64,000 nucleotides of DNA, taken from the NCBI GenBank assembly GCA_045837725.1, contig JBEWZL010000126.1:62001-126000 (forward strand). The letters run 5' to 3'. How positions within the stretch are numbered: position 1 is the first letter of the stretch; each line of letters begins with the position of its first letter. Position numbers and translations under genes: made by a program. This DNA comes from Vermamoeba vermiformis. Taxonomy: Eukaryota. The notes under the pieces were generated by a model. The model saw nothing but the letters and a program-made list of their open reading frames with translations. It ran no database searches and was not told where the DNA came from. This document shows, piece by piece, positions 36,801 to 64,000 of this stretch.

Positions 36801-37669
36801 GAAGTTCTTGAGGGATCCAACTGTCTTCAGTGCATCGAGCGATGTTTCCACGAGAATGGTTTCCTTTGATAGTTGTGGCAGTAGCCACTCGATAATGTAC
36901 GTGGGTGTCGGTGGTTTTCTATTATCGGGAAGCTGACTTGCGCGGCTTTTCCCCAACGGATACGCACCGGAAAACTCGTTGAGCTGCAGGTCAGCCATAT
37001 AATGTAACCATCTGTCGGTAATTCTGGCCTTCTCCACTCTAAATATTGCTTTAGGCAGAGCGATACGCCACGTGCGTGTGAATCCATCGTCTTCTACAGG
37101 GTAGACCGAGGAATAGTTAGTGCGACGTAGCTCCATGGGCACGAATAGCAAGTGACCTGCCGACTCTTTGTCGGCGAACACCACAATGTCACATGAGTGG
37201 TATGGAAAGTGCAACACGATGAAGCTGCCTAAGAACGCGGTTAGTTGGATCGAGAAGCTATGAGATCTTGATACTTACTCTCTGATAACGAACTTATGGC
37301 ACGTCGAGTTTTAGTGCAGACATCCTTTAACGAATTAGTGGCATTTCGGTAAATGTCCAAAGTGCTCTGCCAGCTGATTCACAAAGAGGTGACAAAAAGT
37401 GGATCTAATCCGGTGATGAAACTGGACGCTAGGTAAGCAATGAATGACTCTATGTATATAGAGAAGCGAGCATCTTTAGCATAGCTTGGTTTGTTGAAGA
37501 GCGGAAATACATTTAAATAGACGTCTGAAAAAATTGAAAAAATTAATCTTCGCCTTCATATTGATCTCCGCACTCGATTACCTTCGAGGTCACCATCCTA
37601 GAATTTTTTAAAATTAAAATAAGCCAAAATTAATTTTTGGATCGTGTTACCAACCTTTGAAGATTCCAT
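27868..37669 (-). pseudogene. DUF3638/DUF3645 giant P-loop NTPase-like protein, copy A (in-frame TGA in exon 3)
   Basis: PWRRS, QLNMGEGKSKVIVP, LLDESDEIL, KRHRIHYG..MAVPFRGKDTP..EFGQPD, GFSGT, LIDSGALI, YLDDIHTRGTDL, QACMRMRKL, EEYERELQQEVEEERQ. 5' micro-exons MESSK|DGDLE|DVYLNVFPLF. TGA at 37379-37381 aligns to Leu in copy B; the rest appears open. Confidence 0.8.
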
Positions 37670-43600: not shown

Positions 43601-46600
43601 TGATGTACTTCATCAAATTCGTACGGATATATCTTGCCTTCGTACTGAATCAAGACCAAGGGCAGCTTTGTGCTGAGTGAGCTTTGGGGCTTGATGAAAA
43701 AGTATTCGGAGAACAATGGAAAAGTCGGGACGAGCTGTGTAGGGGCGAGTGCGTAGCCAGGATAATCGTCGGAAACAACTTCGCCATTTTCTTGAAGCGT
43801 AAATGTCAAATTACACTGAAGTTGCACTTTGAACTCGTTGATCGCGGACTTCGAAAAAATCAGGTGTTGAACTGGCGTTATCCTTGTGAGCTGGTTGATT
43901 AATTCTTGCAAGTGGCCATCGTACGCGTTCAATAACTGACTCTTCTTTTGATCATTGATAAAGCACTCTCTTGTATCCATATTCATCTCGTAATGAACTG
44001 CTGTTTCGTGAAAATCTATGAACCTGAATTCAATTATACGCCGATTGAAGTCAACCCAATGCGCCATGCGTGTCACAAGTTGTTCTGGCAAGCCTGAGCT
44101 CTGCAGCAACTCTCTTGGCAGTAGCGTGTATTCTCGATCACCTCGTCGCTCCTGGATTAACGGATATTGATTCCACAAGCCAAATTTGAATTTTCGATCT
44201 CCGTGTGATGTGACGTATTCGTTATCTACGCGCTGAACAATGAAACTGGCGTTCTTCATAACTTGTTGGTAGAGAGGCTTTTGTACGATCGCAGAAGGCA
44301 GCTCTGAGACTGTCAGTCCATCGCAAAGAATTAAGCCAGAGATCGGATTGATCATATAAGGACCACTTGAGTACCAATCTAGGAGTTTGCCATTCTCATC
44401 TACTCTTTCCCACACCATATCTTCCTTAAGGTCAATACCGACCTTTGCAATCATTCGGTGCAGCATCGACGGGTGGCAAGCAATGAGCTTGTGAATGTCA
44501 ATCGAGTGATTGAATATATGAGTGTCTACTAGCGCAAGCAAATTGGTGATTTCCGTTGGAATTCGACTCCCACATACGCTCTTCAATCTTGACAACTCGG
44601 AGCGGTACTGCAAGTCTTTTTCCGTCACTCCTAATGATCCAAGCAATAAATACGAGTAGAACTGAATAAGCAACCATCTCCACTTTGCTAGGTCTTCTGC
44701 CTTCTTTGTAGACTCGATGATTGCTTGCTCTACTTCTTCGATCCACTCGTGAATAGTGTTGCATACTTCATTAAGCAGCTGACTAAACTCGGCACGATAA
44801 CCAAATTGCAGGGTAAACGTTGAAATCTCTATGATTAGCCGCATTATTGCGTGTGACTGCCAATTCGGCCGAATTTCAGCGTGCTTTGCCAACAGTAACT
44901 GGTGAAGTCGATGAAGCCAAGTGTCGGTGAACAAATCACGTTTCCAGCTCCATTTGCATTCTGTGCTGTCTAAAGTTGGGCCCATTTCGAACAGCACTCG
45001 TTGAGTCAAGATCAAGAAGTCATCACTCTTTAACTGTTCGGATGCGGATTCAATCATCATAATAAGCTCTCTAATTTGCAAATTGGGTGGTGCACGGACT
45101 CTTCCAAAGCCAATGAAATCTCTCTTGCCCATAACTGGCATTTCATGTTGTGATGCTAACACCATGTTCTCTGTGTGACACGCGTTGCTCATCCAATTGA
45201 GATTGCGCAGAGAGCCAGTCAGCTCATATTGGTACTTTGCCAGGTCGTATTGGAACGAAGAAATAGAATTGTTGTCAATAGCGATGGAGCGAATATCGAA
45301 ATCAGGATAAATGTCATTGACAGTAAACGCTGAAGTGTTCTTGAAATGTGAATCGGATTCAAGAGTCTTGCGGTGGCTAATCAATGATACGGGCGAATTT
45401 TCCAGCGGTGGCAACTGAATGTCTTTCGCAAATGCCCAGTCAACACAATCTTGGCTGCTCCGGCTAGTCACTGGGTTGAGCTTGATGTCGTGAAGCGTAT
45501 AGGCTTTAAGAACAATAGCTCCATAAGACTTGAGAACCTCGGGTAGACACGCGAAGAAGATCACTTCTTTGGCGATTTGATCGTCAGTGGGCAGTGGGTG
45601 CTTGACTTGAGTAGGAGTAGCCAAAAGTGTCGATCGACGTCTACACCTGCCGCACTTGCCCTTCAAATAACCATTCCGCGTGTAAGTGCAACTACACGGT
45701 TGGTACTTCAAGGCTTTATACTCTTCTTCAGCCTCGTCGAGTTCTTTCTTACGGGCAGCAGTTCGTACTTGCTCTTGCTCTCTCTCTGCCACCAAACAAC
45801 TCTGCATCTCCGTTCCTTCAGTTGAATCAAAGTACTTGACGGCAAAGCGTTGTGTAGCGTCTGGCGCAGTATAATCGAACAAGCCTGGACTGGTTCCGAA
45901 AGAATTCTTGCGGGCAATCAAATTGGCTGCAGTTTGCATCAACGACCGCTCTCTAAAGGTTAAGTTTTCTAACAGGGTGACCGGAAGTGCCATGCCAACA
46001 TTTGCAAACAAGTCAGGCCATCTTCTTCGAGCAACATGATCAATTAATGCGATTAAGCACCATAAAGCCAAGACTTCGCGACTTCTTCTTTCAGGGGATT
46101 GGCTCTTGAATGTCGGAATCAATGTAGCGTACTCTTCTGCTAAAGTTCGAAGATTGGCTGCCCAGTTGTCAAGATCCGCTATATCCTCTTCGCACATGCA
46201 ATTGAATAGTCGATAGATGAAGTTTTCCGTCCCGTGCAACATAGAGCAGGCCGTAAACATTGCTAAGTCATACTTTTGCTTCTTTATGGCAAGTTTCGCT
46301 TGCTTAAGTTGCTCGGAGATAGAGCGCAGTAAATCCAGTGCGGTGCTCGCATCGATTGATTCGACGAATGAAATCGGGCTGACGTGCGCAGAGATATCCT
46401 CCTTGAGAGCCGCGAGCTCCACATTCGATCCCTTTTGCAGCGATTGCAAGTCAGAGTCAGGCAAGTAAAATCGACCTTGATAAACAGTTAGAATGGAATG
46501 TCCGGAAGATAATACCGAATAACAATCTTACCAGACACCTTCTGCAAGCTGAGACTCTTTGGCAAGATGTTCTCAGTCTCTTTTTGCTTTACTATCGACG

Positions 46601-48334
46601 GAAGTAAGCCATCAACCTGCTGCTGGACAGCTTCACACTTTTCGGCGACTAGCGTGACCATCTTCTCCATCGCAGCGCCCATTGCTAGCAACTTGCGTGC
46701 TCTCAAGCTGATTCGTTGAAGCATCTCCACTTGCTTATTGACTATGGTGGCAGTAGGGACACCATTATGCTCGGCGTACTGGCCTAACAGCCACGTTTTG
46801 AACCCGAGCTGCAAGACCTTGTATTGCTCCAATGAGAAGCCATACCATCGCTGAGCTAGTGCAGTAGTGAATCGTATAGAGTTCCAGTGAACGGATCTGC
46901 GCCACGGCACTCCTTGACCGATGAATTTGCTTTGCGAGCTGACGGTCTTCGTTGAGCTGATCGACTCGCCAACGGTTATTGTAGTCTTTGATAGCTCCGG
47001 CAACAACCACTCGATGATATATGTAGGTGTTGGTGGTTTTCGATTATCAGGAAGTTGACTCGCGCGCCCGTTGCCTAATGGAAAGACTCCGGGAAAATCC
47101 GCAACTGATCCGATCTGAAGATCAGCCATCATGGTTAGCCATCTTTTAGTAACACCTGTCCTCGTGACTCGGAATATAGTCTTTGGCAGTGCTATACGCC
47201 ATGAACGGGTGTAGCCACTCTCCTTGATCGGTTCCGCGGAGGAAAAGCTAGTGCGGCGTAGCTCCATCGGCACAAACAGCAGGTCGCTTGAGTCTTCGTC
47301 AGGGAGAACCACAATGTCGCACGAATGGCTGGGAAAATGGAGGACAAGGAAGTTGCCTAGTATGAGAATCAGTACTCCGCAATGTCAATTGTGTTTTACT
47401 GACCACTCTCCAAAGAATCAAGAGCAGCTTGTGTATTTGCAACTACGTCTTCCAAAGATTTGCTCTCGTAAGCTTTGCAAATTTTTAACGAGCTTCCCAA
47501 GCTATTCAGTAGGGAAGAAACATAGGTGGGATCTAATCCGGGTAGTTTTTTGACCAGATCTGAGGTGAGGAACCCAATGTATGTTTCTAAATACAATGAG
47601 AATGGTGCATCTTTTTCGTAGTCAGGTTTGACGAAGAGAGGAAATACATTCAGATAGACGTCTATTAATTTAAAACATATCCCTTTTCAGCCGGCCAATG
47701 TTTTTAGATAAAAATTATACAAAAATTCAGGACCGTTGATTTTTGGTAATCGCCAGAAGAGACTGTAGTACAAAAAAAGGTACAATTTTGTTGGGTGATG
47801 TCCATTGACAGTGCGCCACACCCCTGAGTAGATCCGGATCGGCCCCAGATCCGATCCACTTCCCCCAGCTCATTTCTTTGTATTATTAATAAAAAATGAT
47901 TAATCACAATACAATACTTGGTTGAGCAAGCACATGTATTCATAGGGAGGAATTTGGCCGGGCCCTAACCCATCCAAGTGTCGAAGTCACGTTGAGGTGA
48001 CTGACACGACCAAAACCATGTGATTCATCAATAGAAAGGTCGCAGGCATCAAGGCGACACCCCTCCATAAAGGAGACCGTACAACAAAAGAGTGTCCGCT
48101 ACGGCAAGTGACAAGTCACTTTCTAGCCCATCCAACTCAGTGCCAGTGAGAGTGCTGTTCCGAACCAGTGGTGTTGCCGAGGCAACACGACCTCCAGACC
48201 ATACTCTGACCCACATCGTCGAGAATCAGCGCGTAACTTTCTCATTGTAGCGGCGCTAAGGCTTCACCCTTAGACGCCGGATGTATTACAAACAGTATTT
48301 ATTATACTACCTACAGCAAGTTTGTTAACAAATT

Positions 48335-51300
48335 CTATAGTTTAAGCTTACGACAAACGGGTTTGTGTGTGTTCTTACAAGTACTGCACAGAAAAATTGG
48401 TCTTTTTTTGTCGGAGCTGCATTTCCAACATACTGTGCTAATTTGCTTTCGTTTACGTGGGTTGCACGTTAGGCAAAAACCATTGACTCGTCTTTCAAAG
48501 ACATCTTCGCTCTGAACTCGCACATGAGAAGAGAGACTTTTTGATTTCAGATCTTTTGCGACAATTATTCTTCGGGTTCTGAGAGATCTGTGTCTAGTTA
48601 ACGGAGATGCATTTTTCTTGTTGCGTGCAGACTGCTCTTGACTAAGTTCATCCTTTAAAATTTGCAAGAAATCTCGAAATTGATCTTCGTCATTGTTCTG
48701 AACTTTCTTATAGTAGCGATAGCACTGGTATGAATTCCAAGTGATTATATTTATAATATTTTCCCATACTACTTGTGTCCATTTTGTTAATCTGAACGGC
48801 CAATCAAACGTATGAATTTGTCTTGCCGCCTCGTCGACAAATCCTTTGGTCTTTGTGTATTCTTGGACAATAAGTGGCTTTGTACTCTGCATTTACAACT
48901 AAATTAGTAACTTAATGACGCAAGCATAAGAAGCTTACTGCAGTCGACGGTACTCCTTGACACAGATCTGTTGCGGCTGATGACGCTGCAATGAAATTAG
49001 ATAAACACTTTGATTAATATTGAACTAACCATCGACGTAATTGGAATAGAGATTCATAATTGCATTGTTATCGCGGAAAGAGTGAGCAATAATCGGACCA
49101 GCAGTGCCTTCTTTTTCAAACGTCAAGTGTTGCCCTGGTTCTTGTAGAGGATTTTGCAAAGTACCAAATATATATGAAGGAGCATTTTTCTTTGCCGACA
49201 ACAAGAATTTAATGCCTTGTTCATCCAAAATAGTAGCCGTCTCTTCCGCACCCCATTTGCTATCTGTTATAATCACGTGGCCAGGCTTGTGATTGTTCAA
49301 TTTCTCGGCTAGCTCTAACAGCTGATATTTAGGAGGCAGACATAGACCCAAGAATATATCGAAGTCCCAAATGTAGTAAGATTCATCGGCGGCCAAGTAG
49401 AGTAAGACACCGTTTGGATGTGGCTTGCTTGGAATGAATTGCTGAGTTACGTTAGTTAAAATGTATTATCTAACGATAACAAGTACTTACTCGGGCATAA
49501 AAGCGGCCCAAAAACGGCAAGATGGTTTCATCAAAGGTAATTTTTTGAGATGGAGACCAATTTTTTTGGCATCGTTGAGCTACTTCTTGAGTAACTTTGT
49601 CAATATCAAAGTGGAAATAATGCATAATCTGTTCGAATCGATCTCGGCCCATTTTTGACGATATCCATTCGTTGCCATACAAGGGATCTTTGATAGTCCA
49701 GTAATCTCTGAGGCGACGACCTTTAACACAACGACTTGCGATCCCAATGGCAATGAATATATCAAATTCTGGCAGCGTAAGTGGTTTCCAATTTGTTCTT
49801 TGCTTTTGAAAAGTAACTTTGTCTTCTTCGGAAGGTTCAAACTCGGTACTAAAATATTCTTCCAAATGCTTTACGTTTGAAACCCAACTTGGTACCGTTA
49901 GCAATCCTAATTGTGATCAGAATGTTTGTTTTCTCGTTAGCTTATGTAATATTTACCTTTGTATTTTTGTTGCATTTTCTCGGCCCAAAGTTTGAGCTGT
50001 GCAGTTTTGTTCAAACGCCATGTTTTTCGTTCTTGCATAACTTCAGAAAATGAAAGACTGGCATAACGGTTTATATCTTCGACCATCTGTAAACGGGTTT
50101 GCTCTGCGGTATTCATTAATTCTGAGAATATTCAACGCTCGAATGAATGATACGTACCAGGCAAAAAGCGCGAAAAGATGCTAGTGTTGGTCATAGGCTG
50201 CTTATTGGTGGGCCCGCTATCCAACGTACAAAAGGAGGTACGAACAAAACCTTTACTTGTTTTATCTCGTATTTGCCAACCTTGATTGGATAGTGCATGC
50301 GGAGATTGGAAGTACTTATTCATTATTAATAGTGCATTTGCCCGAATGTCCGACTCGCATATCCAATTTGTTTGCACCTTCTTATTTTTCCAATCGATGA
50401 GCCATTCCCATAGATCCTAGCCAAAATAAGACAACCATTCGATTATCTCGCATACATACATTATGGAAGCGTACTTTGTAAATGCACTTGATTTGCTCAA
50501 GAGCTATTTTGCTTCCCGGTGCCACTTTATCCACCATAAGGAGATCGTCGGTTACAGCCTTAACAACAATATGCGAGTCTGGCAGCTGCCACTCCTTATC
50601 TATCGAAGGTGTCTGAAGCTTTGGTTGGCCTTTTTCCAATTGCTTGGGTTCTTAACGGTGCATTAGAATTAAATTAGCCGCGTTGCACTTACTTTTTTTA
50701 GGAGGAGCAATTAAGTTGTCTTCTGTTTCCAACAGGTCGCAAGCGACACTGATTTTACGTTTCCTTGTTTGCATCGTACAGGAAGCAGGAACGGCAGTCT
50801 TCAACGGAAATTGAATGCCGACTTCGGCTTGTTTAATGTAAACCACTGCACTGGCGGAGCGAACACCACCGCTTAACTGCGAAAGAATAGCAACACGCTC
50901 CTACTTGACATTTAGTCCGAGATCGCTTGTTGGAAAAAACATACCCGTGTAACTTTAGCATCATTATAATTGTTCCAATGTAAAGCACAGCGTTCGTTGA
51001 CAACAACTCCATAATGTCCATTATTGCGAGTTTTTCCATCGTGCCAAATTACACCATAAAGTAGGTACAAAGTTCCTTCAAAGTGAACGGATGTTTCGAT
51101 TGTCAAACGTCGAACTTGCTTGTGTTCATCGAGCTCGGAGAAACGATTGATTCGAATCAATAACAGTTTTGGGTGGTTCAACACCTGTTTGCGTAATTGG
51201 CAATCCTTTTTATCATTAGATCGAGTACTTCGTTAACAAACATTGATAATAATTACCTTTGCTTGATATTCTACCACTTCCGGAGCAAAAAAATCGTCAA

Positions 51301-52211
51301 TTCCTTGTTGAACACTCTGAACGGATGGCTTGAAGTAGATGTCGATCCCTGTACTACATTAGTTATGTGTCGCAAAAACAATACGTACAGTTGATCTGCT
51401 CCACTCTTCCGTCGTTCACTTGGGTAGAATTTTCATCAAATATCGCCGTACTGAATTGGATAGCTAGTTCTCGCCGCGAATCTACCAAATTTAACAAATC
51501 TTGTAACAATAGGGTAGCGTCTTGTTGTCCAGCTTGCACAATTGTTCGTACATTAGAATTGATAGCGAGAGTAGTTGCTAGTCTTTCAAACAGAACTGCA
51601 GCATCGACCGGTTGGCTTTGTTCAATGAATTTGAGTAAATACTCGTTGACTAGCATTGCAATCTCGGTAGTTGACTGTTCAAACAGTTGCCGTAGACACG
51701 GGACCTTTGCAATAAGTACCAAGCATACGTGCAGAAAACAACGAACACTTGGGTTAACAAACCCAAATTTAAACAGCGGAGACTATCGCAGAAAATTAGG
51801 ATTACACTGCACAAGATTATTATTCTTACCTCAAATTCAAATGGATATAATTGTATCTTTCCTATCTTATGCGAAGTAAAATTGCCTCTATTTTTTGGCT
51901 GGCTGTAAATTTGTTAGCACAGAAGACAGATCGACCGTCGAATTTTCTTACTTTAAAATGTTATTAATGATCGCAATAAATTCATCTTTTGCTATATTGC
52001 CGTGATATGCTTCGTAGACCCAGTGAATGTCGCCCATTGAGAGACCACGCTCATTTGTTTCGTGGAAGTGGATCAACGACTGCATGACATTTGGAGAAGC
52101 TATAAAACGTTGTAGATCGGTGTCTGAAGATACGACACATTAAAAATAAATTTTTAATAGCGCAAATAACATAGCCTTACCCGAAAAGACACGAACAAGC
52201 GACATCTGCAT
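48335..52211 (-). CDS. USP (C19) deubiquitinase + chromodomain-like + piggyBac DDD transposase with C-terminal Cys-rich domain (one spliced ORF; start uncertain)
   Basis: USP Cys box GFVNPSVRCFLHVCL..IAKVPCLR, GQQDA, PKLLLIRINRF, His box YGVIWHDG...GHY...WNNYNDAKV. Chromo-like LEQIKCIYK|DLWEWLIDWKNKKVQTNWICESDI. Transposase IFSRFLP..MVEDINRYA, MGRDRFEQI, TFDET..FLGR, IPSKPHPNG, IITDSKW, KPLIVQEY..TKGFVD, CxxC..CxxC..LCxxC..H. All junctions are in phase through GT-AG introns. Confidence 0.82.
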
Positions 52212-52459
52212 CCAAAAAAAATAGTACCTTAGTATTGGCTAAAAAATGTAGTAAATTACTCTAGAACGTCCAAATTTAATTGAGATTTTCGCCGTTTAGG
52301 TAAAATAAAAAATATGAAAATTCGATGACAAATTAGGATCGGGTTCATTTACCCTACTGAAGGCCGGCAATTGGTGGTATCTTGCAACAACATAAGCATC
52401 GAACTGGTTCAAAACAGAAAATGGCGAATTACTGCAGAAAAAGCACGTGAGTATTTATT

Positions 52460-55286
52460 TCAAGGAATTCCATCGAGATCACTCAGCTGGTTGAAAGCGG
52501 CAATGAATGCATTGGGATCGAACTCAGGAACTTCAAAAAGTCCAAGCGAGCAAAGCAACACTTCATAATGGAGCTGTAGGTACTGTAGCACCAGATCCAG
52601 TGGCTGCTCGCCAAATATTGTCGCCATAGCAAGCCCGCCTGCGTCACTTAACTCTAACTCATCCACGACACCGGCAACTCGTTGGTACAATTCGCAAACT
52701 TGGACCAGCAATGGATCTGCGAAACTCAGTGTCAACAAAGTGCATGATAAAAATGACTCCTCTTACTGATCGTTGGTACTGAATGAGCCAAGGGGTGTTC
52801 GCGTAGGAATTTATGACGATTGAATAGCTCAAATGTGTAGAACGGCTCGACGGAGAATTCAGTGTATGCATCCAGGTTCACTCGACGAACAAACCACGTG
52901 CCTAATGAATCATTACACAAATTGACACAGTGCGAAAGTTGCTTACCGATGAATTGGAAGACATCTTCTTGATATTCAACCGCAATTTCGAGAGGAAGAC
53001 AGTGATAACAATTGAGCCGCACCATGTCATTCCTTGCTGAATCTGCCCCGCGATTGACGACAAATGAGCCATCAATCATCGTGCCGCCCGCCCCACCAAC
53101 TGTTATAACCCCCTCGCGCCAATTACTCCAATTATTACCAGGGAAATTTTTCCGAAGTAACATCGACGTACAACCTGGAGTGAATTAATCCATCGCGCCG
53201 TTTAATTTGCAGAATTGGAATTACCTATTTGACTGAGGCCATTAAAGGAGGAGTCTATTGTTAAGCCACCAGTAAATTCTGCTTTGGCCAAATCGAACTT
53301 GGAATACAGCTCCCCAACCTGAGCTTTCGTTATTTTGATTGAAGTGATTAAACGTCAAGATTGTCACTTACTTTAAGATGTTTTCTCGGGCCGAAGATAC
53401 ATGATTTACCAACGGCACATTCATGCAACTGCTCGATGAGCAAAACTTTGCAAGACGCACAATACAACAGTTGATTGTTGTGCAAAAGCAAGTGAGCAAA
53501 CGCCCAACAACCTCCGGTGGGGAAAAATATATCAATCAAAGGCTTAATAGGTTCCGTATTCCGAGCCAGTCCACTGCGCGAGAGTTTTCGTTTCTTGGCA
53601 TTTGTCGAAGGCCGCAGTGCTCGCCTCCACTGCATTAGCTTTTGTTTGTTGGTTGTCCAGGTCGACAAAGAATAACCAAGAGTTGTATTTGCCTCTATAA
53701 AATAATTAGTGGAAGTACAGACCAAATATTAACAGCTTACCACAGTTGCGTTTCTCGGACTCGTAAATGTTTACATCTACATTACGAATTGTCGCCACCC
53801 AACGTATAAATCTGGAATATACACCGACTACTCGATGTTTCAAGTATGATTGCATTCGTTTTGGTTGTAAAAGCATCATATTGTCCACGAGCGGAATGTC
53901 AACATCCCCTAAGCACAATGCATTAGAAATTAATTGTTGCGTAAACGGTAACGCACTCACGAGTCCCAGTCTGCGAACGCTCCTGCACCACAAAGCGCCA
54001 CCCCGGTGGGGCATCACAGTTAGCCACCAATTCATCTGGATCTACGAAACCAGAGACCGTAAACACAACAACGTCTCTTGCATTGCCCAAGTACTTGTCA
54101 TCTAATTGATAAAATAAATACAAATGCAATAACAATAGTTTGTTGCGTACTATCAGCATGCGATCCCATGGCGGGGAATACTTCTCGGTTATTTGCCCGA
54201 GCTAGTTCTATGTCATCCTCCGATAAAGGCGGATAGGCAGTAAACATTACACAAGTTGAGTGACTGCAAAAGTAGCCAAAGTCGCGTAGTTTTCGGAATA
54301 GTAGCTGGATGCACTCGGGTGTTTGATTCGTAGAATCACGGTAGAAATTGCTTCATAGTAGTTGTTAGAATAAATAAAATTGATATATTGAATCATACTT
54401 ATAGGAGATACCGGTGCCTGTATTTCCGTACACTGCATACAGCCGTTTGGTAACTGCAGTCAACCGTTCATTGATCTTGCCCTCTGGTGAGAACAAAATG
54501 TCTTGGAACAGCGAGGATTTAAAGGATGAGTATTCAGACTCGTCAAAAAACTGGTGATAGACCAGAATATCAACGCCGAAAGCTGAGACCATTTCCGTAG
54601 CCCTGTGTCACGAGATCATTATAATTAACCCCACTGACGGTAATCTTACTTACGCAGGTAATTCAGTATGCGTACTCTCCTCAATCAATTGTTCAAAGCA
54701 AGTAATAGGCTCGGAGTCAATAAAGGCGGTATCATTAAGGGTGTCGTAGATCGGTGAATCTAAAATTGTGACATTAGATTTAATTGCTCAATACTATTTA
54801 TCGATAAATACTTACCAATTTCAATTGGTTTTGTACAAATCAGGCTGCAGTTCCAAGTTAAAGAGTAGAACCGCTCTAAAACGCCATCTGAATTTTTCAC
54901 CTTCAAATCGCCAGCAATTATCTGCTTTACGAACTCCTCAAGCTTGCCGTAGGGCATTGTAATATTGGGCTCCTCTGCTAAAAGGGTCGAGATTACCGCC
55001 CTAAAAACTAGCCGTTACTAATTAAGTTAATTTAATTAATTAAAATTTTAATTTACGCAACAAATTCCCAAAACTAATAAGAAATAAATACGTACCTTAG
55101 AGGAATATTTTTCTTATTTTCTGGATCAATTTTGAATAAACGCCGAAAGGCTGCACCAACGATCTTGTTTTGGCTGGTGGCGGACAAGCTAACCACCCTA
55201 TAGTCATGGCGGACGCTAGACCGGTCAACAGAATTGTCCGGTCCGCATTCCACAACTCTAGTGTGCACATGTGTTGTCGCCTCCAT
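52460..55286 (-). CDS. AlkB-family 2OG-Fe(II) dioxygenase fused to a divergent SRA/YDG domain (transposon cargo; start uncertain)
   Basis: Spliced sequence KRLYAVYGNTGTGISY...TPECIQLL...CVMFTAY...MGSHAD (54152-54160)...LG...WRFVV...IPLVDNMMLLQPKRMQSYLKH...RWVATIR gives HxD...H...RxxxxxR. Then NLS KKRK, CxxC..HxC, and SRA-like FGPRKHLKVGELY...GL...GCTSMLL...TVGGAGG...NDMVRLNC..LPLEI...FIGTWFV...YTFEL. TGA at 52460 is followed by AATAAA. Confidence 0.75.
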
Positions 55287-55790
55287 CCAGAAACAGATAA
55301 ATGGAAAAATTCGGGACTGTATTTTTGTCTACAAGATTTTACTCATACACACAACGATGGGTATAAATAATTCAACGTTGCGTATGCCAAATTATGGAAA
55401 ACACCATCTTACAACGGCAGATTTAGTGATCCTCACCCGATCTCCGCACCACCCTTCGCCATAAATTACTGTAAGCTTAGAATAATTAAAATACCCTACC
55501 AAAAAATCAATGTTGCTAATAACCCGCTAAAATAATTGTCCCTTCAATATTTATAAATTTTTTTTCGTGCGCCGGGATCAAAGGGATATTAGAAATCAAA
55601 ATTGCATTGAACGATCTCAGTCCGAAGATACTACCTTCAATATCTTGTTCCTATAATAATAAAACATTGTTAATAAGGTGAACTATTCATTTGATATTAA
55701 GGAACGTACCTTTGAAGACTCCATTTCTTTGATTCTCTTGATCGTCTATTGTTCCTCCAACAAACTGCGAGACCAAATATATATTCAATC

Positions 55791-55840
55791 CAACACGGCG
55801 TTCACAAGTGACCAACACGGCGAAAAGATTCGCAACACGG
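55791..55840. promoter_or_regulatory. Three copies of CAACACGG upstream of the DUF3638 copy B start
   Basis: CAACACGG at 55791, 55813 and 55833, about 70-115 bp upstream of the ATG at 55724. Confidence 0.35.
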
Positions 55841-56230
55841 TCAAAAATTAGCAAGTTTAGTTGTGAACTACGTGGGTTTTTCCGTCCATTAATTTATTTC
55901 TGCAATTATCTTCCGCGCAGTAAGTAATTCAGTGGTAAGATTTATCGAATCTGAAATGTAATGGTTAGACCGAATAGCTGCAAACAGGCATTTTTAAATA
56001 TTCTTTTCTTATACCAGCTGCTGAGCCATCCTTACATTTTTTAATAAAAGAACTCTGAGTTTTTGATTTATTTGTTAAATTGGATGTAAGATGAGATGGC
56101 CTTCTTTGGACAAGTTTGTTGGAATATTCCATAACTAATGTATCAACCTCCTCTGCATGTTGTTGTGTTGCTGAAATAAACATAATAGCATGTTGGCACA
56201 AAACAAGGACCGGGCACGATCAGGACGATT

Positions 56231-59103
56231 TCACCAGTCTTCATGAGAAATGCGCATTGAGTTCTTTGCTTGGTTGTACCGATTTTCTATATTTCTTGAG
56301 TGTTTGATGTACTTCATCTCTTCTTTCAGCGGTATTGTGTGACTCAAGTCGACTTCATTAATACCAATGCTAACGACTACTAGCTCATTGATAAGGCCAA
56401 GATTCTTGTAAGCAGTGATCTATTATCGTGTTAAAAGGTGTAGCAATCGTTCAACGTAACACTTCGTACCTTATGGTGTCCATCAATAATAAACAGCTCT
56501 ACGTTCGAACTGATAGCCAAGGCAGCAGGTCGGCATCCGCTTCGGATCCTCTCCGTGTAGTATTCGACCCGCTCCTCGCTCAACAAGTCAGAGGGTTGTG
56601 TGAAGTACACGAGCGGATAGAACGGAAACTCCGCTGAAAATAATAAGTTAAAACCAACAGGTTGGACAATACAAAGTTTGACGTACTTTCAAGATTTGTA
56701 AAATCCGTAGTAGACGAGTATTCGAACAGCCTATAGTCTCCTCGACTTCGAACTTCAACGTCGTAATACCCTGACGAAAGACACTTCATGAAAGGCAGCA
56801 AGGTGTCGACAAGACTGTCAAATTCGATAATTCCGCTGTTTAGCGTATCCTCTGATCAGTAGTATTAGTATCAATCATAAGAGACGATATTCTACGTACC
56901 AATCTTCTTCACAGCACCTTCTATACTATCTCGTGAAAGCGACTGACACCTCGCGATGCAACGGTAGACTGAACCGCAGAATTGAGGCCAAGTTGACATA
57001 ATTGGCTGCAACAATGTTATTTACGTCACTAGGATGAATGAATGGCCACTACTTACCTCGCCATTGAGCTTGAGTCCAGTTAAAAAGCCATTTTCTAGTA
57101 CGAGCAACCCTTCACCGTCATCCAGACGCACCACTTGCCAGAATTGAGGCCGCTTTTTCAGCCGACCAACAATATGAGACTTTTGAATTGAACGAAATGG
57201 GTTTGAACAATTTGGAACTGCTTGCGGGTGTCCCTGCCACAAAGTCTTTGCTGTTATCACCCTGAACCAACTTTTTGACACCGAAGCAACCTGACACGCC
57301 TCATTGAAGGACAGATATCCGAACGTTAGCTTTACGATTTCTTGAGGGAGATTTGAGAACATTCCCAAATCGTATTCGGCAGTGTTTTTCCGCAGCTGGG
57401 ATGACAGCCGATAATCCTAAAATAATTGGGTTAAAATCGCATAATATGATCGTCTTTTGATTACTTCTGGTAGTAGATTGCAACTCGCGACCAATTTCAT
57501 CAATCGCCCTCCACTTTTAATCGGCGCGTCCAACAGCATACGGACTTCTTCTGATGAGAAATTTTTAACTAAATGTCGCCAGATTGCCCGTATATTCGAC
57601 TCTAGTCTGTAAAAGTCCCATTGATTGTCCTTAATGTCGATTTGTTTTTGCAGGTCCTCGCAACTTCTGAAAAACTTTTCGATTGGCGTCATTGTTTCTT
57701 GTTTGTCCTCGATCTCATATACACGTTCAGTCAACAGAGAAGCGACAACGTCTTGCTAAAATAGAGGTAAATCAATAAAGGAAAATATCAGTAACCCACA
57801 GACCTACCTTCGAAACAAAAGGCCACATCGTCACAACGCCAGCATATTTTTCAGCGCTTAAAACGTCAGCAATGACCCGTCGGTCAAACTCAGAATCAAC
57901 GGGCATTTTTGCCTTGAATCTATTGTACGATTAGAACATGCGTATTCTCGCTGTATTGAACATACTCGAACAGTTTTTTCAAAACATTGGTTTCCTGGCT
58001 AGACGCAGCAATTCCAAACACAGTTATCCCGTCCTGAATTGGTTCTCCGCCCTTCATATTTCGTGTTGTTGCTTTGATATCAAGCTCCGCATTAATCAAC
58101 TTGTCAATGTCGCAGTAGTCATAAACAGCAGCGTAGAAGATAACTAAGCAATGGCCATTAATTAGCGACTCATATCGTCTCTATCGTGCTTACTTGCCTG
58201 GATTGCCATGGATATCTTTTCCGTTAACATCTGCCCCACGTGACAAAAGATAGTCCACACAAGGCTTTTTCTTGTTCCACGATGTGAAAGCACGCTGCAG
58301 TGGCAATTTACTACCAACCCTATCGTTGACCGACATACCTCGATCTTCAATCAAGTATCGCAAAATGTCAACGCTGTATTTGCAAGCTAATTTTAGAACT
58401 TGATCCATTTGAGGATGCTGTGAAAAGGAACTGAGACACATGTAGGTACCAATAATTTCTTACCTTGCTGTGTTGCAACATCTCCTTAAAATAGTTCAAT
58501 GCGTTTTTTCGAATGGCAAGTTCAATGGGACTCTCGTGATGATGGTAATGATAATTAGCGCCTTGCGGATTTGGAGCGAACGGATCTACCGCACTCGGAT
58601 GGGTCAAGAACATTCGCAGCTGCTCTGCTGTCAACTGTTTTGACATTGCAGCTATAGAAATATAAGGCTGCTGTTCTGCAGCGAAATTAGGTCTTTCATT
58701 TTGAAAAAAGATACTTACGAGGATCAAAGGTAGCTTTGAATTTGAGTAGGACACGCAGCAGCGCTCCATCGCTCGGATCTCCTTTTTGACAGAGTGACGA
58801 AATAGGATCGGCATAACCTTGTGGAGTTAATATTGATTTCATATGTTGACAGACGCGCTCGGAAGGATTATTCCAGTCATACAATAAATATTTCTGAATT
58901 TTTTCTTGGGTATTTTTGTTGATCCAATTAATTAGGGTCTTTTGGTTTTGCCTGCAGACCCACTCTTCGATTGTAGGCTCTTCGCATTTTTTTTCTGGCT
59001 TAATTTTTATATCCGAAGGATCAACTAAGTCGTCGCCAAAATCAAACGGGTTGTCTTCTTCCATTGCGGGCTGGCCGAAATTGTTTTTCTTGTCTGTGTT
59101 CAT
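56231..59103 (-). CDS. Ankyrin repeats + F-box + ParB/Srx-like (IIDGHHK) protein, paralog B
   Basis: Ankyrin LACKYSVDILRYLIEDRGMSVN, CVDYLLSRGADVNGKDIHGN; F-box FSNLPQEIVKLTFGYLSF; YFTQPSDLL..RVEYY..IRSGCRPAALAI..FIIDGHHK|ITAYKNLG. Exon structure is colinear with 24672-27772; TGA at 56231-56233. Confidence 0.78.
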
Positions 59104-59237
59104 TTTACTCCTTGATGTTGTTGCGACGCCTCACAACATTATTTTCAAGCGGTAATAGTACTCGGTGTATTACTATTACACGAAAATCAACACAAGCACC
59201 ATCGTTATTTAAGAGAAGTTATAGATACGCTGCTCAC

Positions 59238-61026
59238 ATGGCTCAAACTGGCGTTGCAAGTCTAATTAACGCTCGCTGGGTCATCCCTATAGTGCCTGAG
59301 AATAAGGTGCTCGAGAACCATACCATTGCTGTCGACAATGCAGGTAAAATCACGAACTAATCTCTCAAGATCCATTCCTTTAATTTAGAAAATTCGACTA
59401 TCATTCTATTTATTCTCCAAATAATATTGTATGTTATAGAGTCCGTTGTATTATAATTTTAAATTGCGGCTCTATTTTTAAAAATACGCTATCCGCTTAG
59501 ATCTTTATTTTCGTGCTAATTATCTTCATAATTATTAGGAGATATCGTCGATGTTTTGCCGATCGAAGAAGCTAAAAAGAAGTATTTGAATGTTCCTAAC
59601 ATCGTGGATCGACCACACCACATCATAATGCCTGGTCTCATCAACATGCACTCCCACAGCCCGATGGTAAGAATTGATGAATAGCAATAACGGAATTGAA
59701 AGAAATATTCGGGAATTGTCGAAACACGATCTGATCTCGTTTGTAGGTTTTACTTCGCGGCTTTGCGGACGATATGCAATTGATGGATTGGCTCAATAAC
59801 AAGATCATGCCCGCTGAACAAAAGTGGGTCACACCTGAGTTCACCAAGGACGGCACCACTCTCGCTGCCGCTGAAATGATTCGCAGTGGTACCACGTGCT
59901 TCAATGACATGTATTTCTTCCCCGAAGCCTCGTACGTGATATAATTATCCATTGTCATGACCATTAACGTTAATTTTTTAGCGCTGAGGCCATTGAGCGT
60001 ATTGGCATGCGTGCTGCTTTTGCTACTGTTATCTTGAAGTTCCCGTCAATGTACAGTGACACTCTCGACGGCTACTTCACTAAGGCACGTGACTTAGGGG
60101 TATAATGATTTGACACTAATCACTTGTAAAGGCCCAACAACTGATCAAACAATACAAAAATCACCCACGTATTCAAATTACTTTGGGCCCTCATGCCCCT
60201 TACACCGTCAATGACGCCCAATTTGAACGTGTCGTGAAGATGGCGCACGAAAACAACGTTAAGATTCACTTGCACTTGCACGAAACTGCCGCTGAAGTCG
60301 AAGGCGGATTGAAGGAGAACAACCAACGCCCGTTCGCTCGTATGGAGAAGTTGGGCGTTATTAATCCCAATTTGATTGCTGTACACTGCACTCAATTGAC
60401 TGATGAAGAGATTGCTTCGCTCGCCAAGCACCATTGCTCCGTCGCGCACTGCCCTGAATCAAACGCCAAGTTGGCTAGCGGCTACTGCCCCGTGCCTAAA
60501 TTGACTCAACAAGGCGCCAACGTATGCCTCGGTACTGACGGTGCTGCCTCGAACAACGATTTGGACATGTTTGTAGAGATGCGCACATCTGCCTTGTTCG
60601 GTAAGTTCTAGTTGTTATGACCGAACTATTACTATTACTATTACTACGTCCTATGCATATACAAACGTTTAACATGTTCGTTTAGCCAAGTACTTCACTA
60701 TGGACGCTAAGGCCGCTGACGCGTTCTCTGTGTTGAAGATGGCAACTATTAACGGTGCCAAAGCCTTGGGCCTCGAGAAACGTATTGGCTCACTGGAAGC
60801 TGGCAAAGAAGCCGACATGATCTCCATTAACCTCAACACAATTGAGACCGTGCCGATGTACAACCCCCTCTCACACTTGGTCTACTGCTCTGGTCGCGAA
60901 TCCGTCAACGACGTCTGGGTCGCTGGCAAGCAATTGATGGAACACAGAAAACTGCTAACTATCGATGAAGCACAAGTTATGGCTAATGCTCGTGCCTGGG
61001 CTGAAAAGATCGCTAAAGACCACTAA
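59238..61026 (+). CDS. Amidohydrolase, 5'-methylthioadenosine/S-adenosylhomocysteine deaminase-like (TRZ/ATZ family)
   Basis: MPGLINMHSHSPM, AEMIRSGTTCFNDMYFFP, PHAPYTV, HLHET, AVHCTQL, HCPESNAKLASG, LGTDGAASNNDLDM, MATINGAKALG, GSLEAGKEAD. Confidence 0.92.
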
Positions 61027-61199
61027 ACATTTGTAATAAACTCGTCATTCAAATTTCTCAAAGTATGTCTGACAGATGTGCAACAAGAATTGCGAAAAGA
61101 ATACATTTAAGGCCCTATACTCTTAGTATAGAGTCTGGCTTTATTACATACTATAAATGAACTTAGTTTCACGAACAATAGCAAAATTCTTGAAACATC

Positions 61200-61809
61200 T
61201 TATTTGTTGGCAACGATGGTTTCTTCGAGCTTGGCAGCGTTGGCACCTATTTAATAGTACGATTAATATTTGATCTACCGCAGCAAATAATCAGATCGAA
61301 AATAGAAAAAATTTTCAATTTTCAAGCTGGGCTTATCGCGATAGTCTTTAAGACCTACCCTTGAATTCAGCAACCTTAGCTCCGTTCTTGAAAAATTGGA
61401 AGGTGGGCATAGCAGTGATACCGCAAGCAGCAGCGACGTCTTCAGCCTCATCAACATCAACCTTGAAGCAGGCAATGTCGGTGAATTTCTTGGACATCTC
61501 CTCAAATTTGGGAGAAATCATCTTGCAAGGACCGCACTATAGGACAATTATTAGTACGTATTAACAAAAACAAATCCGATGAAGGAAAACTTTCTACCAA
61601 ATTATTCTATTCGCGCAAAAATATTCGATTTATCCCAGATTATTTTTTCATGTCGGGAGCAAGTTGGTACTGTGCCTAATAGTCACGTAAAGTGACGTAA
61701 ATTTTAAATTACTTACCCAAGTGGCGCTAAAGTCAATGACGACGAGCTTGTCCTTGTTGGCAGCAAGAGCGTTGTCGAATTCGGCCTTGTTCTTAATTTC
61801 GTGGACCAT
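61200..61809 (-). CDS. TRX: Thioredoxin
   Basis: Three exons: MVHEIK...VIDFSATW|CGPCKMISP...KVDVDE...AMPTFQFFKNG|GANAAKLE; WCGPC is split by intron 1. Confidence 0.95.
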
Positions 61810-62237
61810 TGTGGTATGTGTTGTTGTCTTGAGTTTTGATTTTGGACTGAGGAATGGAAAATTGCGCGCTTTTGTTGATCTTCCGACCACGTGCGGCTTC
61901 TAGAAACTTGACTAGTTTTGGTTCTCTTCCCGAGAGCGCCGAGTTATTCTAATTATACCGAAGCACCGAAGAAGCCACGAGAGGGATCTTAAATCACGGT
62001 GGGTGTTCTAGTCGCGCGAGGTTAAACAAATCCAATTTCGGACATCCGCGGCTCGGTTCTATTGCAAACTAGAATACCGAAGACTGTTTTTATTTACAAA
62101 ATATTGCTATTGTATTTGTACATTACTATAAGCGTCTCTAAGAGGAACGTGAAAGCTCCACGAATACCAAAAAATATTTTACAATAATAGGACGATACGG
62201 TCCCGTAGAATAGACGACTGGTTATTACAACATGACA

Positions 62238-63105
62238 CTAATTGTCAATTTTAGTGTAGTGAGGTACGACTCTAAAGACGAAATAAGAATTTAGCTATCG
62301 ATCTAATCGATTGGTTTAGCGTTTCCTGCTTACCGCTTGATACGTGGGTTGATAAGACTTCGTCCTGCCTTCCGTTTAACTCCTTTAGGCTGATTCGCGG
62401 CTCTGTTGTTATCTACAGTCAACGTGTCGACCATCGCAGAGGGCTGTGATTGCATCGAGAATGTTGCAACAGGCAAGCTGGATTTGACCTCAGTCTTGAA
62501 ACCTGTAACGATCTTAGCTTCGTCCGTATATTCATAGCTGCACTTACCGTTATTTCTCGCAGAGCCGCCAGCACGCACTTGATCAACCAACGAGAAGACG
62601 AGTTGAACAAACGCGGAGTCATTATCAGGAGCGCGTCTAAGAACGGTGAGGTAAGCAATTTTGAAGAGCAATCCGACAGAATTCACTTACGCCAACTCGA
62701 AAGTAACCGAGGTCTGTTGTTTATCATCAAAAGAGCACCAAATAGTCATCGTAAGCTGATCTTCATCCATTGAAATGAACAAATCATCGTTTCCAAGCGC
62801 TTCTTTAATTTTCTCGAAAAATATTTGCCAAGAGAGGCTCTCCATATCGAGGGCGCGTTTCTGCACCAACAATTAGCAAATCTACGAATTTCAATGATTT
62901 CCTTAAAATAAATTCAAACTACCTGCTTATCCAATGCATCTAGCGAATAACTTGACGCCCATAGCTCTTTGTCGTCCAAGCAAGCACAGCTGACCTTCAG
63001 CTTGGCTTTTCTTGCCTCGAGCTTACAGATGTAGTTCTTACCCAGCGAGGTGACCTTAGCGTAGGTGCTGTCTACAATTATCAAATAATCCTCTGCTTTT
63101 GACAT
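62238..63105 (-). CDS. PAXX-like (XRCC4 superfamily) NHEJ factor
   Basis: N-terminal head-like region (ELWASSYSLDALDKQ|KRALDMES..FFEKIKEAL) and C-terminal KRKAGRSLINPRIKR, resembling the PAXX Ku-binding GxSLINP motif. Confidence 0.65.
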
Positions 63106-63389
63106 CTACAGCTGTTATTTCATTTGAATATTGAAGGACGATTCAAATTGTGTAACGGATAGATTTGAGATTTCGCGGGCCAACAGTCACATGCCCAGTC
63201 CCGTGCAAAGTAAGGCGAATCAGCTGATGCTAGAGCACGACGTATTAACGAAATCTAATGAAGGTCCGCGGACCTCATAATTGGAATTGGTCCACCCAGG
63301 CAAACTCTTTGAAATCTGCGTTGTGTTTCTATTTTTGTCGAAGATTTTGGTTCAAAGCATTTAGTTTTATCAATTCGCACATTAACAAC

Positions 63390-63964: not shown

Positions 63965-64000
63965 GTAAGCTCAACAAATAGTCGACAATTATGCCTTAAA

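What the first reader, a model, noticed from the sequence alone, without database searches (positions are those of the whole stretch)
48335..52211. Transposase translationally fused to a USP deubiquitinase and a chromodomain-like module
Seen: from the USP Cys box to the transposase stop, every exon junction can be joined in phase with canonical GT-AG introns and no stop. The USP Cys, His and Asn-Asp residues, all three transposase aspartates and the C-terminal Cys-rich domain are present, so the element may be functional. Known: chromodomain-integrase fusions guide chromovirus targeting. Inference: this transposase could read histone marks and remove ubiquitin at target or donor chromatin, or protect itself from degradation.
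Basis: partly seen in the sequence, partly recalled or inferred. Interest (0 to 1): 0.82.

Follow-up and report, generated by a model that had tools for sequence, protein, structure and literature searches.

The report
piggyBac transposon with deubiquitinase-fused transposase
This is a multi-copy, roughly 7.9-kb piggyBac-type jumping gene whose transposase appears to be made as one protein with a ubiquitin-removing enzyme domain in front of it, an arrangement known from other transposon families but which my searches did not find described for piggyBac.

Summary
On the minus strand, 52211..48335 can be read as 14 exons with 13 GT-AG introns of 36-57 nt, giving 1090 aa. The order is a leader, a USP (peptidase C19) domain with Asn/Cys, His and Asn-Asp in place, a basic linker, a conserved middle module, then a complete piggyBac transposase (three Asp, 7-Cys tail).

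In-phase joining alone is weak: shuffled sequence reaches 1530 nt on average against 3329 real. A metagenome contig (L001) carries the same order at 52% identity. USP and middle module are conserved (dN 0.45-0.49) and the linkers are not.

The gene lies in a larger element, about 47681-55585. It has CCCTTT inverted ends flanked by ATAT rather than TTAA, and a second 665-aa gene upstream. DNA depth is about 9-fold that of the flank.

The chromodomain reading is only a lead: one language-model hit, while Pfam, PDB and a fold attempt gave nothing. No RNA evidence was obtainable.

Verdict: a new variant of a known kind, a transposase fused to a deubiquitinase.

The parts
47677..47680 (.). ATAT flanking the left end (candidate 4-bp target-site duplication)
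   Evidence: Read directly. Contigs of DNA run X2 diverge at 47674 and 47677. L001 ends in ...AAGGGATAT.
47681..47700 (.). Left terminal inverted repeat (the 3' end in gene orientation), starting CCCTTT
   Evidence: Counted with the ATAT, 17 of 24 positions pair with the right end; the first 10 are identical and a CCGGC block follows. It fits the piggyBac TIR motif C[CAT][CAT][TGA][TAG][TGA] quoted in PMC5381638.
47736..47749 (.). Left subterminal repeat TTGATTTTTGGTA
   Evidence: Shared 9-mers with the right end in inverted orientation, at 59-71 nt from the left end against 79-92 nt from the right.
47936..48018 (-). Conserved non-coding block in the 3' untranslated region
   Evidence: 78% identical over 83 nt to L001 3662-3741, although the proteins are only 52% identical. 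The whole 3' region aligns. No Rfam or tRNA match.
48335..52211 (-). ORF2: 14-exon gene for the 1090-aa USP / middle module / piggyBac transposase protein. Exons: 52211-52181, 52123-51952, 51902-51830, 51782-51389, 51348-51257, 51205-50945, 50900-50693, 50650-50460, 50416-50158, 50121-49957, 49906-49491, 49441-49030, 48985-48939, 48886-48335.
   Evidence: Gene model. Collinear with L001. No AATAAA on this strand inside the gene; one lies about 35 nt after the stop.
50829..51782 (-). USP (peptidase C19) domain, exons 4-7: Cys box 51764-51729, QQDA 51527-51492, His box 51019-50999, Asn-Asp 50974-50951, last strand AVVYIKQ 50849-50829
   Evidence: Pfam UCH. USP2 and USP21 alignment at E 1e-3. Coordinates.
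50643..50768 (-). Basic linker with TRKRK and PPKKKPK (nuclear-localisation-like by eye)
   Evidence: Read from the model. 34% identity to L001, dN 0.78, yet the frame is open in both.
50306..50507 (-). Conserved chromo-like module, split by intron 8 (IALEQIK..VRFHN | DLWEWLIDWKN..TNWICESDI..ALLIMNKYFQ)
   Evidence: 49% identity to L001, dN 0.49. Chromo clusters at ranks 2 and 3, score 0.89, in the Atlas. No Pfam or PDB match.
48650..49906 (-). piggyBac DDE transposase core: D1 in ITFDETI 49541-49521, D2 in VIITDSKW 49276-49253, D3 in GFVDEAAR 48844-48821. The 48650 end is approximate.
   Evidence: Pfam DDE_Tnp_1_7. PDB alignments. 67-71% identity to L001.
48338..48478 (-). C-terminal Cys-rich domain (7 Cys: CxxC-x11-CxxC-x10-CxxC-x7-C)
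   Evidence: Aligned to the Cys-rich tail of 6x67. Cysteine positions.
52460..54957 (-). ORF1: a second gene inside the element, 11 exons, 10 GT-AG introns of 45-56 nt, 665 aa, stop TGA followed at once by AATAAA; function unknown
   Evidence: Model. No Pfam on the four largest exon ORFs scanned. The Atlas gave nothing. One relative cluster (P0151, 48% identity).
55496..55510 (.). Right subterminal repeat (TTGATTTTTTGGTA on the minus strand)
55566..55585 (.). Right terminal inverted repeat (...CCGGGATCAAAGGG)
   Evidence: GGGATAT occurs only once on the + strand in 50000-64000. AAGGGATAT and ATATCCCTT each occur once in the 64-kb window.
55586..55589 (.). ATAT flanking the right end

Best explanation
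The locus is an autonomous, recently amplified DNA transposon of the piggyBac superfamily, about 7.9 kb long. It has CCCTTT inverted ends and two genes on the same strand.

The downstream gene is translated as one 1090-aa protein. In order, it holds a short leader, a USP-type deubiquitinase domain with intact catalytic residues, a basic linker that looks like a nuclear-localisation signal, a conserved module of about 65 aa (possibly chromo-like in fold), and a complete piggyBac transposase with its Cys-rich DNA-binding tail.

Shown here: the domains, their order, the open frame, their conservation in a distant relative, the inverted ends and the raised copy number.

Inferred: the deubiquitinase works in cis at the transpososome. 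My preferred mechanism is that it strips ubiquitin from the transposase or its partners, so that they escape proteasomal or ubiquitin-dependent shutdown (about 40% of my belief). Second choice is that it removes histone or repair-factor ubiquitin at the excision or insertion site, damping break signalling (about 30%). In both cases the middle module would help hold the enzyme on chromatin or on a partner rather than read methyl-lysine.
For: - Gene model with no stop.
- Pfam UCH and DDE_Tnp_1_7.
- Catalytic residues aligned to USP2, piggyBat and T. ni piggyBac.
- The real strand gives a 3329-nt chain against at most 2330 nt in 20 shuffles.
- L001 is collinear with residues 140-1073. Its own 10-exon model is open to the stop. 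Of the 10 window introns in the region L001 covers, 9 have a counterpart in L001 at the same or nearly the same place.
- dN is 0.45 for USP and 0.49 for the middle module, against 0.78-1.15 for the linkers, with synonymous sites saturated. That points to selection on both added modules.
- The largest non-coding gap inside the gene is 57 nt, and there is no AATAAA inside it, while one follows each of the two stops.
- Summed contig depth is 280.6 in the flank and 2231-6225 in all 27 bins from 47651 to 53500. Other copies have different left flanks. Only 4 variant sites were listed in 6.5 kb.
- Terminal and subterminal inverted repeats. L001's contig ends at the same terminal 9-mer, and the whole 3' non-coding region aligns.
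Against: - There is no transcript evidence. The three RNA runs with the same species label laid 0 reads on the whole 6.5 kb, flank included, so they test nothing.
- Retention of intron 7 would end the frame after the USP and linker, so a USP-only isoform is possible (read).
- I chose L001's splice sites guided by the window model, so the 'conserved introns' are partly built in.
- L001 has an in-frame TGA at 491-493. It is avoided only by taking a later acceptor.
- The N-terminal USP half scores below Pfam's cutoff and finds nothing in the PDB.
- Only one full comparator exists.
- Depth is a sum over contigs, not a copy count.
- Enzyme activity and any role in transposition are untested.
Confidence: 0.72

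Rival explanations
1. There are two products, not one. The USP (with or without the middle module) and the transposase are made separately from the same element, by intron retention, internal polyadenylation or internal initiation. The open frame across the linker would then not be used.
For: - Retaining intron 7 gives a stop 15 codons on in the window. In L001 it gives a stop with an AATAAA inside the intron.
- The linker is poorly conserved: 34% identity, dN 0.78.
- In-phase chains of 1.5 kb arise by chance.
- No RNA data.
Against: - The linker frame is open in both lineages, over 80 or more codons each.
- Gaps between exons are at most 57 nt, leaving no room for a promoter.
- No AATAAA on the coding strand inside the window gene.
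- Conserved coding blocks run without a break from USP to transposase.
Confidence: 0.15
2. The middle module is a true chromodomain that reads histone methyl marks and steers integration, as in chromoviruses, while the USP edits chromatin ubiquitin.
For: - Atlas look-alike search of the exon 9 ORF: Chromo PF00385 clusters at ranks 2 and 3, score 0.89.
- By eye, the conserved residues (LEQI.., EWLIDWK, NWI.E, LL..NKYF) follow the recalled chromodomain pattern. They are also the residues shared with L001.
Against: - No Pfam hit even at E<=10 on 4 exon ORFs.
- No PDB hit to a chromodomain, by phmmer or by profile.
- AlphaFold on exon 9 alone gave pLDDT 52.5 and helices.
- The Atlas score is below the tool's own 0.9 line, and shared features (155 and 141) are below 170.
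- Only 1 of 3 recalled aromatic-cage positions is aromatic.
- These tests are handicapped, because intron 8 splits the module and I could not submit the spliced sequence.
Confidence: 0.12
3. It is a domesticated host gene, a host-transposase fusion like PGBD1 or CSB-PGBD3, and no longer a mobile element.
For: Long multi-domain piggyBac-derived host proteins exist (Table 1 of PMC5381638, passages seen). Relatives are rare in databases.
Against: - About 9-fold depth, with at least two other left flanks starting at the inverted end.
- Intact terminal and subterminal inverted repeats.
- All catalytic Asp residues kept.
- Degenerate copies occur elsewhere (L002, L003).
Confidence: 0.04
4. It is a chance open chain or a dead pseudogene copy.
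For: Shuffles give long chains.
Against: Pfam and PDB homology over most exons. Protein-level conservation with L001. The copies are nearly identical.
Confidence: 0.03

Closest known systems
piggyBac superfamily elements (T. ni piggyBac, PDB 6x67; piggyBat, PDB 9c0f)
   Same: DDE_Tnp_1_7 core with the three Asp, a C-terminal Cys-rich domain, short inverted ends beginning with C (here CCCTTT), subterminal repeats and a 4-bp flank.
   Different: - About 640 extra N-terminal residues, holding a USP domain and a conserved middle module.
- A second 665-aa gene inside the element.
- 7.9 kb, against a mean of 2.8 kb and a maximum of 8,451 bp in PMC5381638.
- ATAT, not TTAA, next to all 3 ends read directly, and consistent with two further copies seen as loose ends.
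- The fourth Asp of the reference (Asp450, recalled) is not kept.
Transposases fused to ubiquitin-like or ubiquitin proteases: Ginger1 (OTU or Ulp1), Mutator-like elements (Ulp1), Helitrons and Helentrons (OTU, VTD)
   Same: A thiol protease of the ubiquitin or SUMO system is carried in the transposition protein of a DNA transposon. The authors likewise propose protection from degradation or a link to repair (PMC2836005 passages; PMC9741609 passages).
   Different: The protease class is different (USP/C19) and so is the transposase superfamily. Here the protease is N-terminal, whereas in Ginger1 it is C-terminal.
Trichomonas vaginalis XP_001314237.1 (transposase_11 plus Peptidase C19)
   Same: A USP-class (C19) domain joined to an IS4/IS5-type DDE transposase, noted in the Discussion of PMC2836005.
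   Different: A different transposase family (pfam01609, not PF13843). I did not see or compare its sequence. No middle module or second gene is reported in the passage I read.
Chromodomain-bearing integrases of chromoviruses (recalled, no call)
   Same: A small conserved module beside the DDE enzyme, which could tether it to chromatin.
   Different: Membership of the chromodomain family was not shown here, and the module lies N-terminal of the DDE core. It also seems to lack two of the three recalled cage aromatics.

Membership tests
piggyBac superfamily | DDE_Tnp_1_7 (PF13843) transposase core | tested here: met
   62.4 and 32.9 bits on the exon 11 and 12 ORFs (cutoff 22.4), and 20.9 bits on exon 14.
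piggyBac superfamily | Catalytic Asp triad | tested here: met
   D1 aligned to piggyBat. D3 aligned to Asp447 of 6x67. D2 rests on the Pfam-covered motif VIITDSKW (residue numbering recalled).
piggyBac superfamily | C-terminal Cys-rich domain | tested here: met
   Aligned to 6x67 residues up to 593. 7 Cys. Pfam zf-Tnp_2 was not reported at E<=0.1.
piggyBac superfamily | Short inverted ends beginning with C | tested here: met
   CCCTTT at both ends. Matches the motif quoted in PMC5381638.
piggyBac superfamily | TTAA target-site duplication | tested here: not met
   ATAT lies next to both window ends and to L001's end. A TTAA lies 3 nt outside the left end only. This weakens 'typical member', not the superfamily assignment, which rests on the enzyme.
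USP / peptidase C19 (PF00443) | Profile match | tested here: met
   C-terminal half 35.3 bits (cutoff 23.9); N-terminal half 15.4 bits, below the cutoff. USP2 and USP21 at E 1e-3 to 4e-3. The domain was tested in pieces only, because of its introns.
USP / peptidase C19 (PF00443) | Cys box with Asn and Cys; His box; Asn/Asp | tested here: met
   GFVNPSVRC read directly. GHY and ND aligned to USP2 GHY and FND. L001 keeps GHYGV and YDD; its Cys box lies off the contig.
USP / peptidase C19 (PF00443) | Isopeptidase activity on ubiquitin | not testable with these tools
   Needs an enzyme assay.
Chromodomain (PF00385) | Profile match | tested here: inconclusive
   No hit at E<=10 on the exon 8 and exon 9 ORFs of the window and L001. 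The module is split by an intron, so only parts were tested.
Chromodomain (PF00385) | Three-stranded sheet plus C-terminal helix | tested here: inconclusive
   AlphaFold of exon 9 alone gave pLDDT 52.5, with helices at 2-10 and 21-36. No fold search was run on it.
Chromodomain (PF00385) | Aromatic cage for methyl-lysine | tested here: inconclusive
   By eye, against recalled positions, 1 of 3 is aromatic in both the window and L001. No alignment to a real chromodomain could be made.

The most novel reading that the evidence does not exclude
This would be a currently active piggyBac lineage that has changed the superfamily's hallmark target from TTAA to ATAT. It moves with a transposase-tethered, catalytically active USP deubiquitinase plus a chromatin-binding module, and a helper protein (ORF1). 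On this reading, removing ubiquitin at the transpososome or on nearby nucleosomes is a required step of cut-and-paste transposition. That would give a direct handle on how ubiquitin signalling restrains DNA transposons, and a new integration specificity for piggyBac tools.
Probability: 0.2. Interest if true: 0.82.

Novelty: new variant of a known kind. Interest (0 to 1): 0.6.

Why it matters
Proteases of the ubiquitin and SUMO systems have been picked up repeatedly by DNA transposons: Ulp1 in Mutator-like elements, OTU and Ulp1 in Ginger1, OTU and VTD in Helitrons. Their role in transposition has never been established. A piggyBac element with such a domain would put the question into the best-understood and most easily assayed eukaryotic cut-and-paste system.

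If the ATAT flanks prove to be true target duplications, the family would also break the TTAA rule that defines piggyBac. That bears on the excision mechanism and on genome-engineering uses.

If the USP proves inert, or is separately expressed, the finding shrinks to an unusual but ordinary large piggyBac element.

Tried and rejected
- **RNA.** No RNA holder was listed. The three raw-read RNA runs with the same species label gave 0 reads on 47000-53500, so they are no test.
- **Whole genome.** Not held.
- **Protein word searches.** Exon 11 ORF against longer proteins gave none of 272 candidates. The exon 9 ORF gave no candidate.
- **Other collections.** Genome contigs and viral-contig scans found no relative.
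- **Architecture check.** I scanned the 10 proteins, out of the 150 listed, that have the longest N-terminal extensions. 0 of 10 had UCH or Chromo. The other 140 were not scanned.
- **Rfam and tRNA.** Nothing in the whole window. The conserved 3' block is therefore not a known RNA.
- **Finding the right end.** The 27-mer and 13-mer of the left end, with up to 3 and 2 mismatches, found only themselves. The right end was found later with shorter words.
- **TTAA as the duplication.** Rejected, because there is no TTAA at the right end.
- **Empty-site proxy.** The flanking gene's paralogue at 36274-37550 stops being similar at the insertion point, so it gives no empty site.
- **Chromodomain.** PDB phmmer gave 0 hits at E<=10. 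A PDB profile of exon 9 gave 2 unrelated hits at E about 1. Pfam gave nothing. The AlphaFold model was too poor to search with. A Pfam Chromo search of L001's record was not possible because the record is not held.
- **ORF1.** No Pfam on the four largest exon ORFs scanned and no usable Atlas hit.
- **Earlier findings of this scan.** Nothing by place, sequence or words.
- **Literature.** 'piggyBac-like' plus 'ubiquitin carboxyl-terminal hydrolase' gave 0 papers. 'DDE_Tnp_1_7' plus 'UCH' gave 1 unrelated paper by its title and abstract. 'piggyBac, transposase, ubiquitin-specific protease, fusion' gave 6 papers, none on a transposon-borne USP by title and abstract. Supplements were closed. Supplement S2 of PMC5381638 lists target sites and could hold an ATAT-flanked relative.
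- **Not used.** Complex prediction, fold search and the second structure job.
Full report
**What is there**

The window is eukaryotic DNA of about 42% G+C. On the minus strand between 52211 and 48335, stop-to-stop ORFs in changing frames can be joined by 13 GT-AG introns of 36-57 nt into a 14-exon, 1090-codon frame. It starts at ATG 52211 and ends at TAG 48335-48337.

Single-exon translations give these Pfam matches:
- UCH (USP, peptidase C19): 35.3 bits on the exon 6 ORF, above the 23.9 cutoff, and 15.4 bits on the exon 4 ORF, below it.
- DDE_Tnp_1_7: 62.4, 32.9 and 20.9 bits on exons 11, 12 and 14 (cutoff 22.4).
- Five further pieces (the exon 2, 7, 8, 9 and 10 ORFs) matched nothing.

The catalytic residues are in place:
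- The Cys box (GFVNPSVRC) and a QQDA motif are read directly.
- GHY and N-D align to the His box and FND of USP2.
- The first Asp aligns to piggyBat 9c0f.
- The third Asp aligns to Asp447 of T. ni piggyBac 6x67, and the seven tail cysteines align to its Cys-rich domain.

**Is the in-phase chain more than chance?**

I let a dynamic programme choose any GT..AG intron of 35-60 nt. The real strand gives 3329 coding nt out of 3877. The opposite strand gives 1321. Twenty dinucleotide shuffles give 1530 on average and 2330 at most. The chain therefore exceeds chance, but 'every junction can be joined in phase' is a weak criterion on its own. The case has to rest on homology and conservation.

**Relatives**

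No genome is held for this window. A full HMMER scan of 1.84 billion representatives with the exon 11 ORF found 365 proteins at E<=1e-3. Only 3 reached 1e-30, and the four closest hits are all exon-sized fragments of 100-221 aa. They are singletons from metagenomes.

A metagenome scan returned three loci. L001 (3989 nt) is collinear with residues 140-1073 of my model: USP, linker, middle module, transposase. Its own model has 10 exons and 9 GT-AG introns of 44-63 nt, and is open from the contig start to its stop.

Ten window introns (4-13) fall in the region L001 covers. Nine have a counterpart in L001 at the same or nearly the same place. Intron 13 is missing there, and the micro-exon is simply continuous.

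Two caveats apply. I picked L001's sites guided by the window model. An in-frame TGA at L001 491-493 is avoided only by a later acceptor.

L002 and L003 are degenerate, internally deleted copies.

Identity between the window and L001:

| Region | Identity | dN |
|---|---|---|
| All | 52% | 0.44 |
| USP | 49% | 0.45 |
| Linker | 34% | 0.78 |
| Middle module | 49% | 0.49 |
| DDE core | 67-71% | 0.20-0.26 |
| Tail linker | 30% | 1.06 |
| Cys-rich tail | 45% | 0.55 |

Synonymous sites are saturated. So the USP and the middle module have been kept by selection about as well as the Cys-rich tail, while the linkers drift yet stay open in both lineages.

**One protein or two?**

For one protein:
- No gap inside the gene exceeds 57 nt.
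- There is no AATAAA on the coding strand inside it, whereas one follows each of the two stops in the element.
- Conserved coding blocks run without a break.

Against:
- There is no RNA evidence. The three RNA runs with the same species label laid no read on 6.5 kb that included a flanking gene, so they are no test.
- Retention of intron 7 would make a USP-only product.

I put the single fused protein at about 0.72-0.8.

**The gene is part of a larger mobile element**

In DNA run X2 (probably the source sample), summed contig depth is 280.6 over 47000-47650 and 2231-6225 in all 27 bins from 47651 to 53500. Of the 194 contigs laid, 160 are at least 99% alike. Only 4 variant sites were listed. 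Contigs with other left flanks join at 47674 and 47677.

The left end reads ATAT|CCCTTTTCAGCCGGCC. The only GGGATAT on the + strand to the right is at 55583-55589, in ...GCGCCGGGATCAAAGGG|ATAT. Counted with the ATAT, the two ends pair at 17 of 24 positions, and the first 10 are identical. A subterminal TTGATTTTT(T)GGTA is also shared in inverted orientation.

L001's contig ends exactly in ...AAGGGATAT, and its 619-nt 3' non-coding region aligns along the window's 658 nt. That alignment includes an 83-nt block at 78% identity.

The element is therefore about 47681-55585. CCCTTT fits the piggyBac end motif quoted in PMC5381638.

ATAT lies next to all three ends I could read, and there is no TTAA at the right end. 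Either ATAT is a specific 4-bp target duplication (my estimate 0.65), or it is the tip of the inverted repeat with no visible duplication. PMC5381638 reports non-TTAA flanks, ATAT among them, only for unique copies, and ascribes them to mutation. I could not see its supplement.

**A second gene**

Upstream on the same strand, 54957-52460 forms 11 exons with 10 GT-AG introns, giving 665 aa. Its TGA is followed at once by AATAAA. It has no Pfam match on the four exon ORFs scanned and no Atlas hit. It has one relative cluster at 48% identity.

**The chromodomain claim**

The module is split by intron 8, and I could only submit unspliced pieces.

Negative results:
- No Pfam hit at E<=10.
- No PDB hit by phmmer.
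- Two unrelated hits at E about 1 in a PDB profile search.
- An AlphaFold model of exon 9 with pLDDT 52.5, which I did not search with.

Positive results:
- The Atlas language-model search lists Chromo clusters at ranks 2 and 3, at 0.89. That is below the tool's 0.9 line.
- By eye, the residues shared with L001 follow the recalled chromodomain pattern, but only one of three recalled cage positions is aromatic.

I rate a chromo-like fold at roughly 0.4-0.5, and methyl-lysine reading at about 0.1.

**Comparison with what is known**

Passages of PMC2836005 document three things:
- OTU or Ulp1 domains at the C-terminus of Ginger1 transposases.
- Ulp1 in Mutator-like elements and OTU in Helitrons.
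- A T. vaginalis protein joining transposase_11 to Peptidase C19.

Passages of PMC9741609 document VTD and OTU deubiquitinases in Helentrons. That paper suggests they protect transposition proteins from degradation.

My searches found no paper pairing piggyBac with a USP domain. Of the 150 database relatives listed, I scanned the 10 with the longest N-terminal extensions, and 0 of 10 carry UCH or Chromo.

The finding is thus a new variant of a known kind: a deubiquitinase-bearing transposase, here USP plus piggyBac. The possibly more surprising extra is the non-TTAA flank.

**Mechanism (inferred)**

The DUB most likely acts in cis at the transpososome. It could keep the transposase or its partners free of ubiquitin, or it could remove histone or repair-factor ubiquitin at the break. 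The basic linker would bring the protein into the nucleus. The middle module would tether it to chromatin or to a partner. ORF1 may be a helper. None of this is tested.

Noticed in passing
window 52460-54957 (minus strand): A second multi-exon gene (665 aa, 11 exons) lies inside the element upstream of the transposase gene. It has no recognisable family and one metagenomic relative cluster at 48% identity. piggyBac elements are described as single-gene elements.
   Followed up: partly
window 47677-47680 and 55586-55589; L001 3986-3989: ATAT rather than TTAA adjoins the CCC ends at all three termini read. Run X2 shows two more copies joining at or just outside ATAT. It is a possible change of piggyBac target specificity.
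   Followed up: partly
window 47936-48018; L001 3662-3741: A non-coding block in the 3' untranslated region is 78% identical between elements whose proteins are 52% identical. It has no Rfam match. It may be a transposase-binding or regulatory site.
   Followed up: partly
L001 491-493: An in-frame TGA sits in the USP region of the relative, unless a downstream acceptor at 496 is used. That copy's USP may be broken.
   Followed up: partly
window 46400-47686 and 36274-37550: The gene left of the element (weak DUF6606 match, E 7e-4, below the cutoff) has a paralogue about 10 kb away, at 69-74% DNA identity. The element sits just upstream of its 5' end.
   Followed up: partly
runs X20-X22 on window 47000-53500: RNA-seq runs carrying the same species label as the source laid no read at all, not even on the flanking gene. 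The label may cover a different strain or species, or the genes may be silent in those samples.
   Followed up: no
window 57021-57416 (minus strand): An F-box domain ORF lies right of the element (Pfam F-box-like, E 7e-8).
   Followed up: no
L002 1597-2408; L003 119-930: Two metagenome contigs hold a decayed copy of a related element. In it the end of the USP region abuts the transposase part, residues about 392-602 are missing and the frame shifts.
   Followed up: partly
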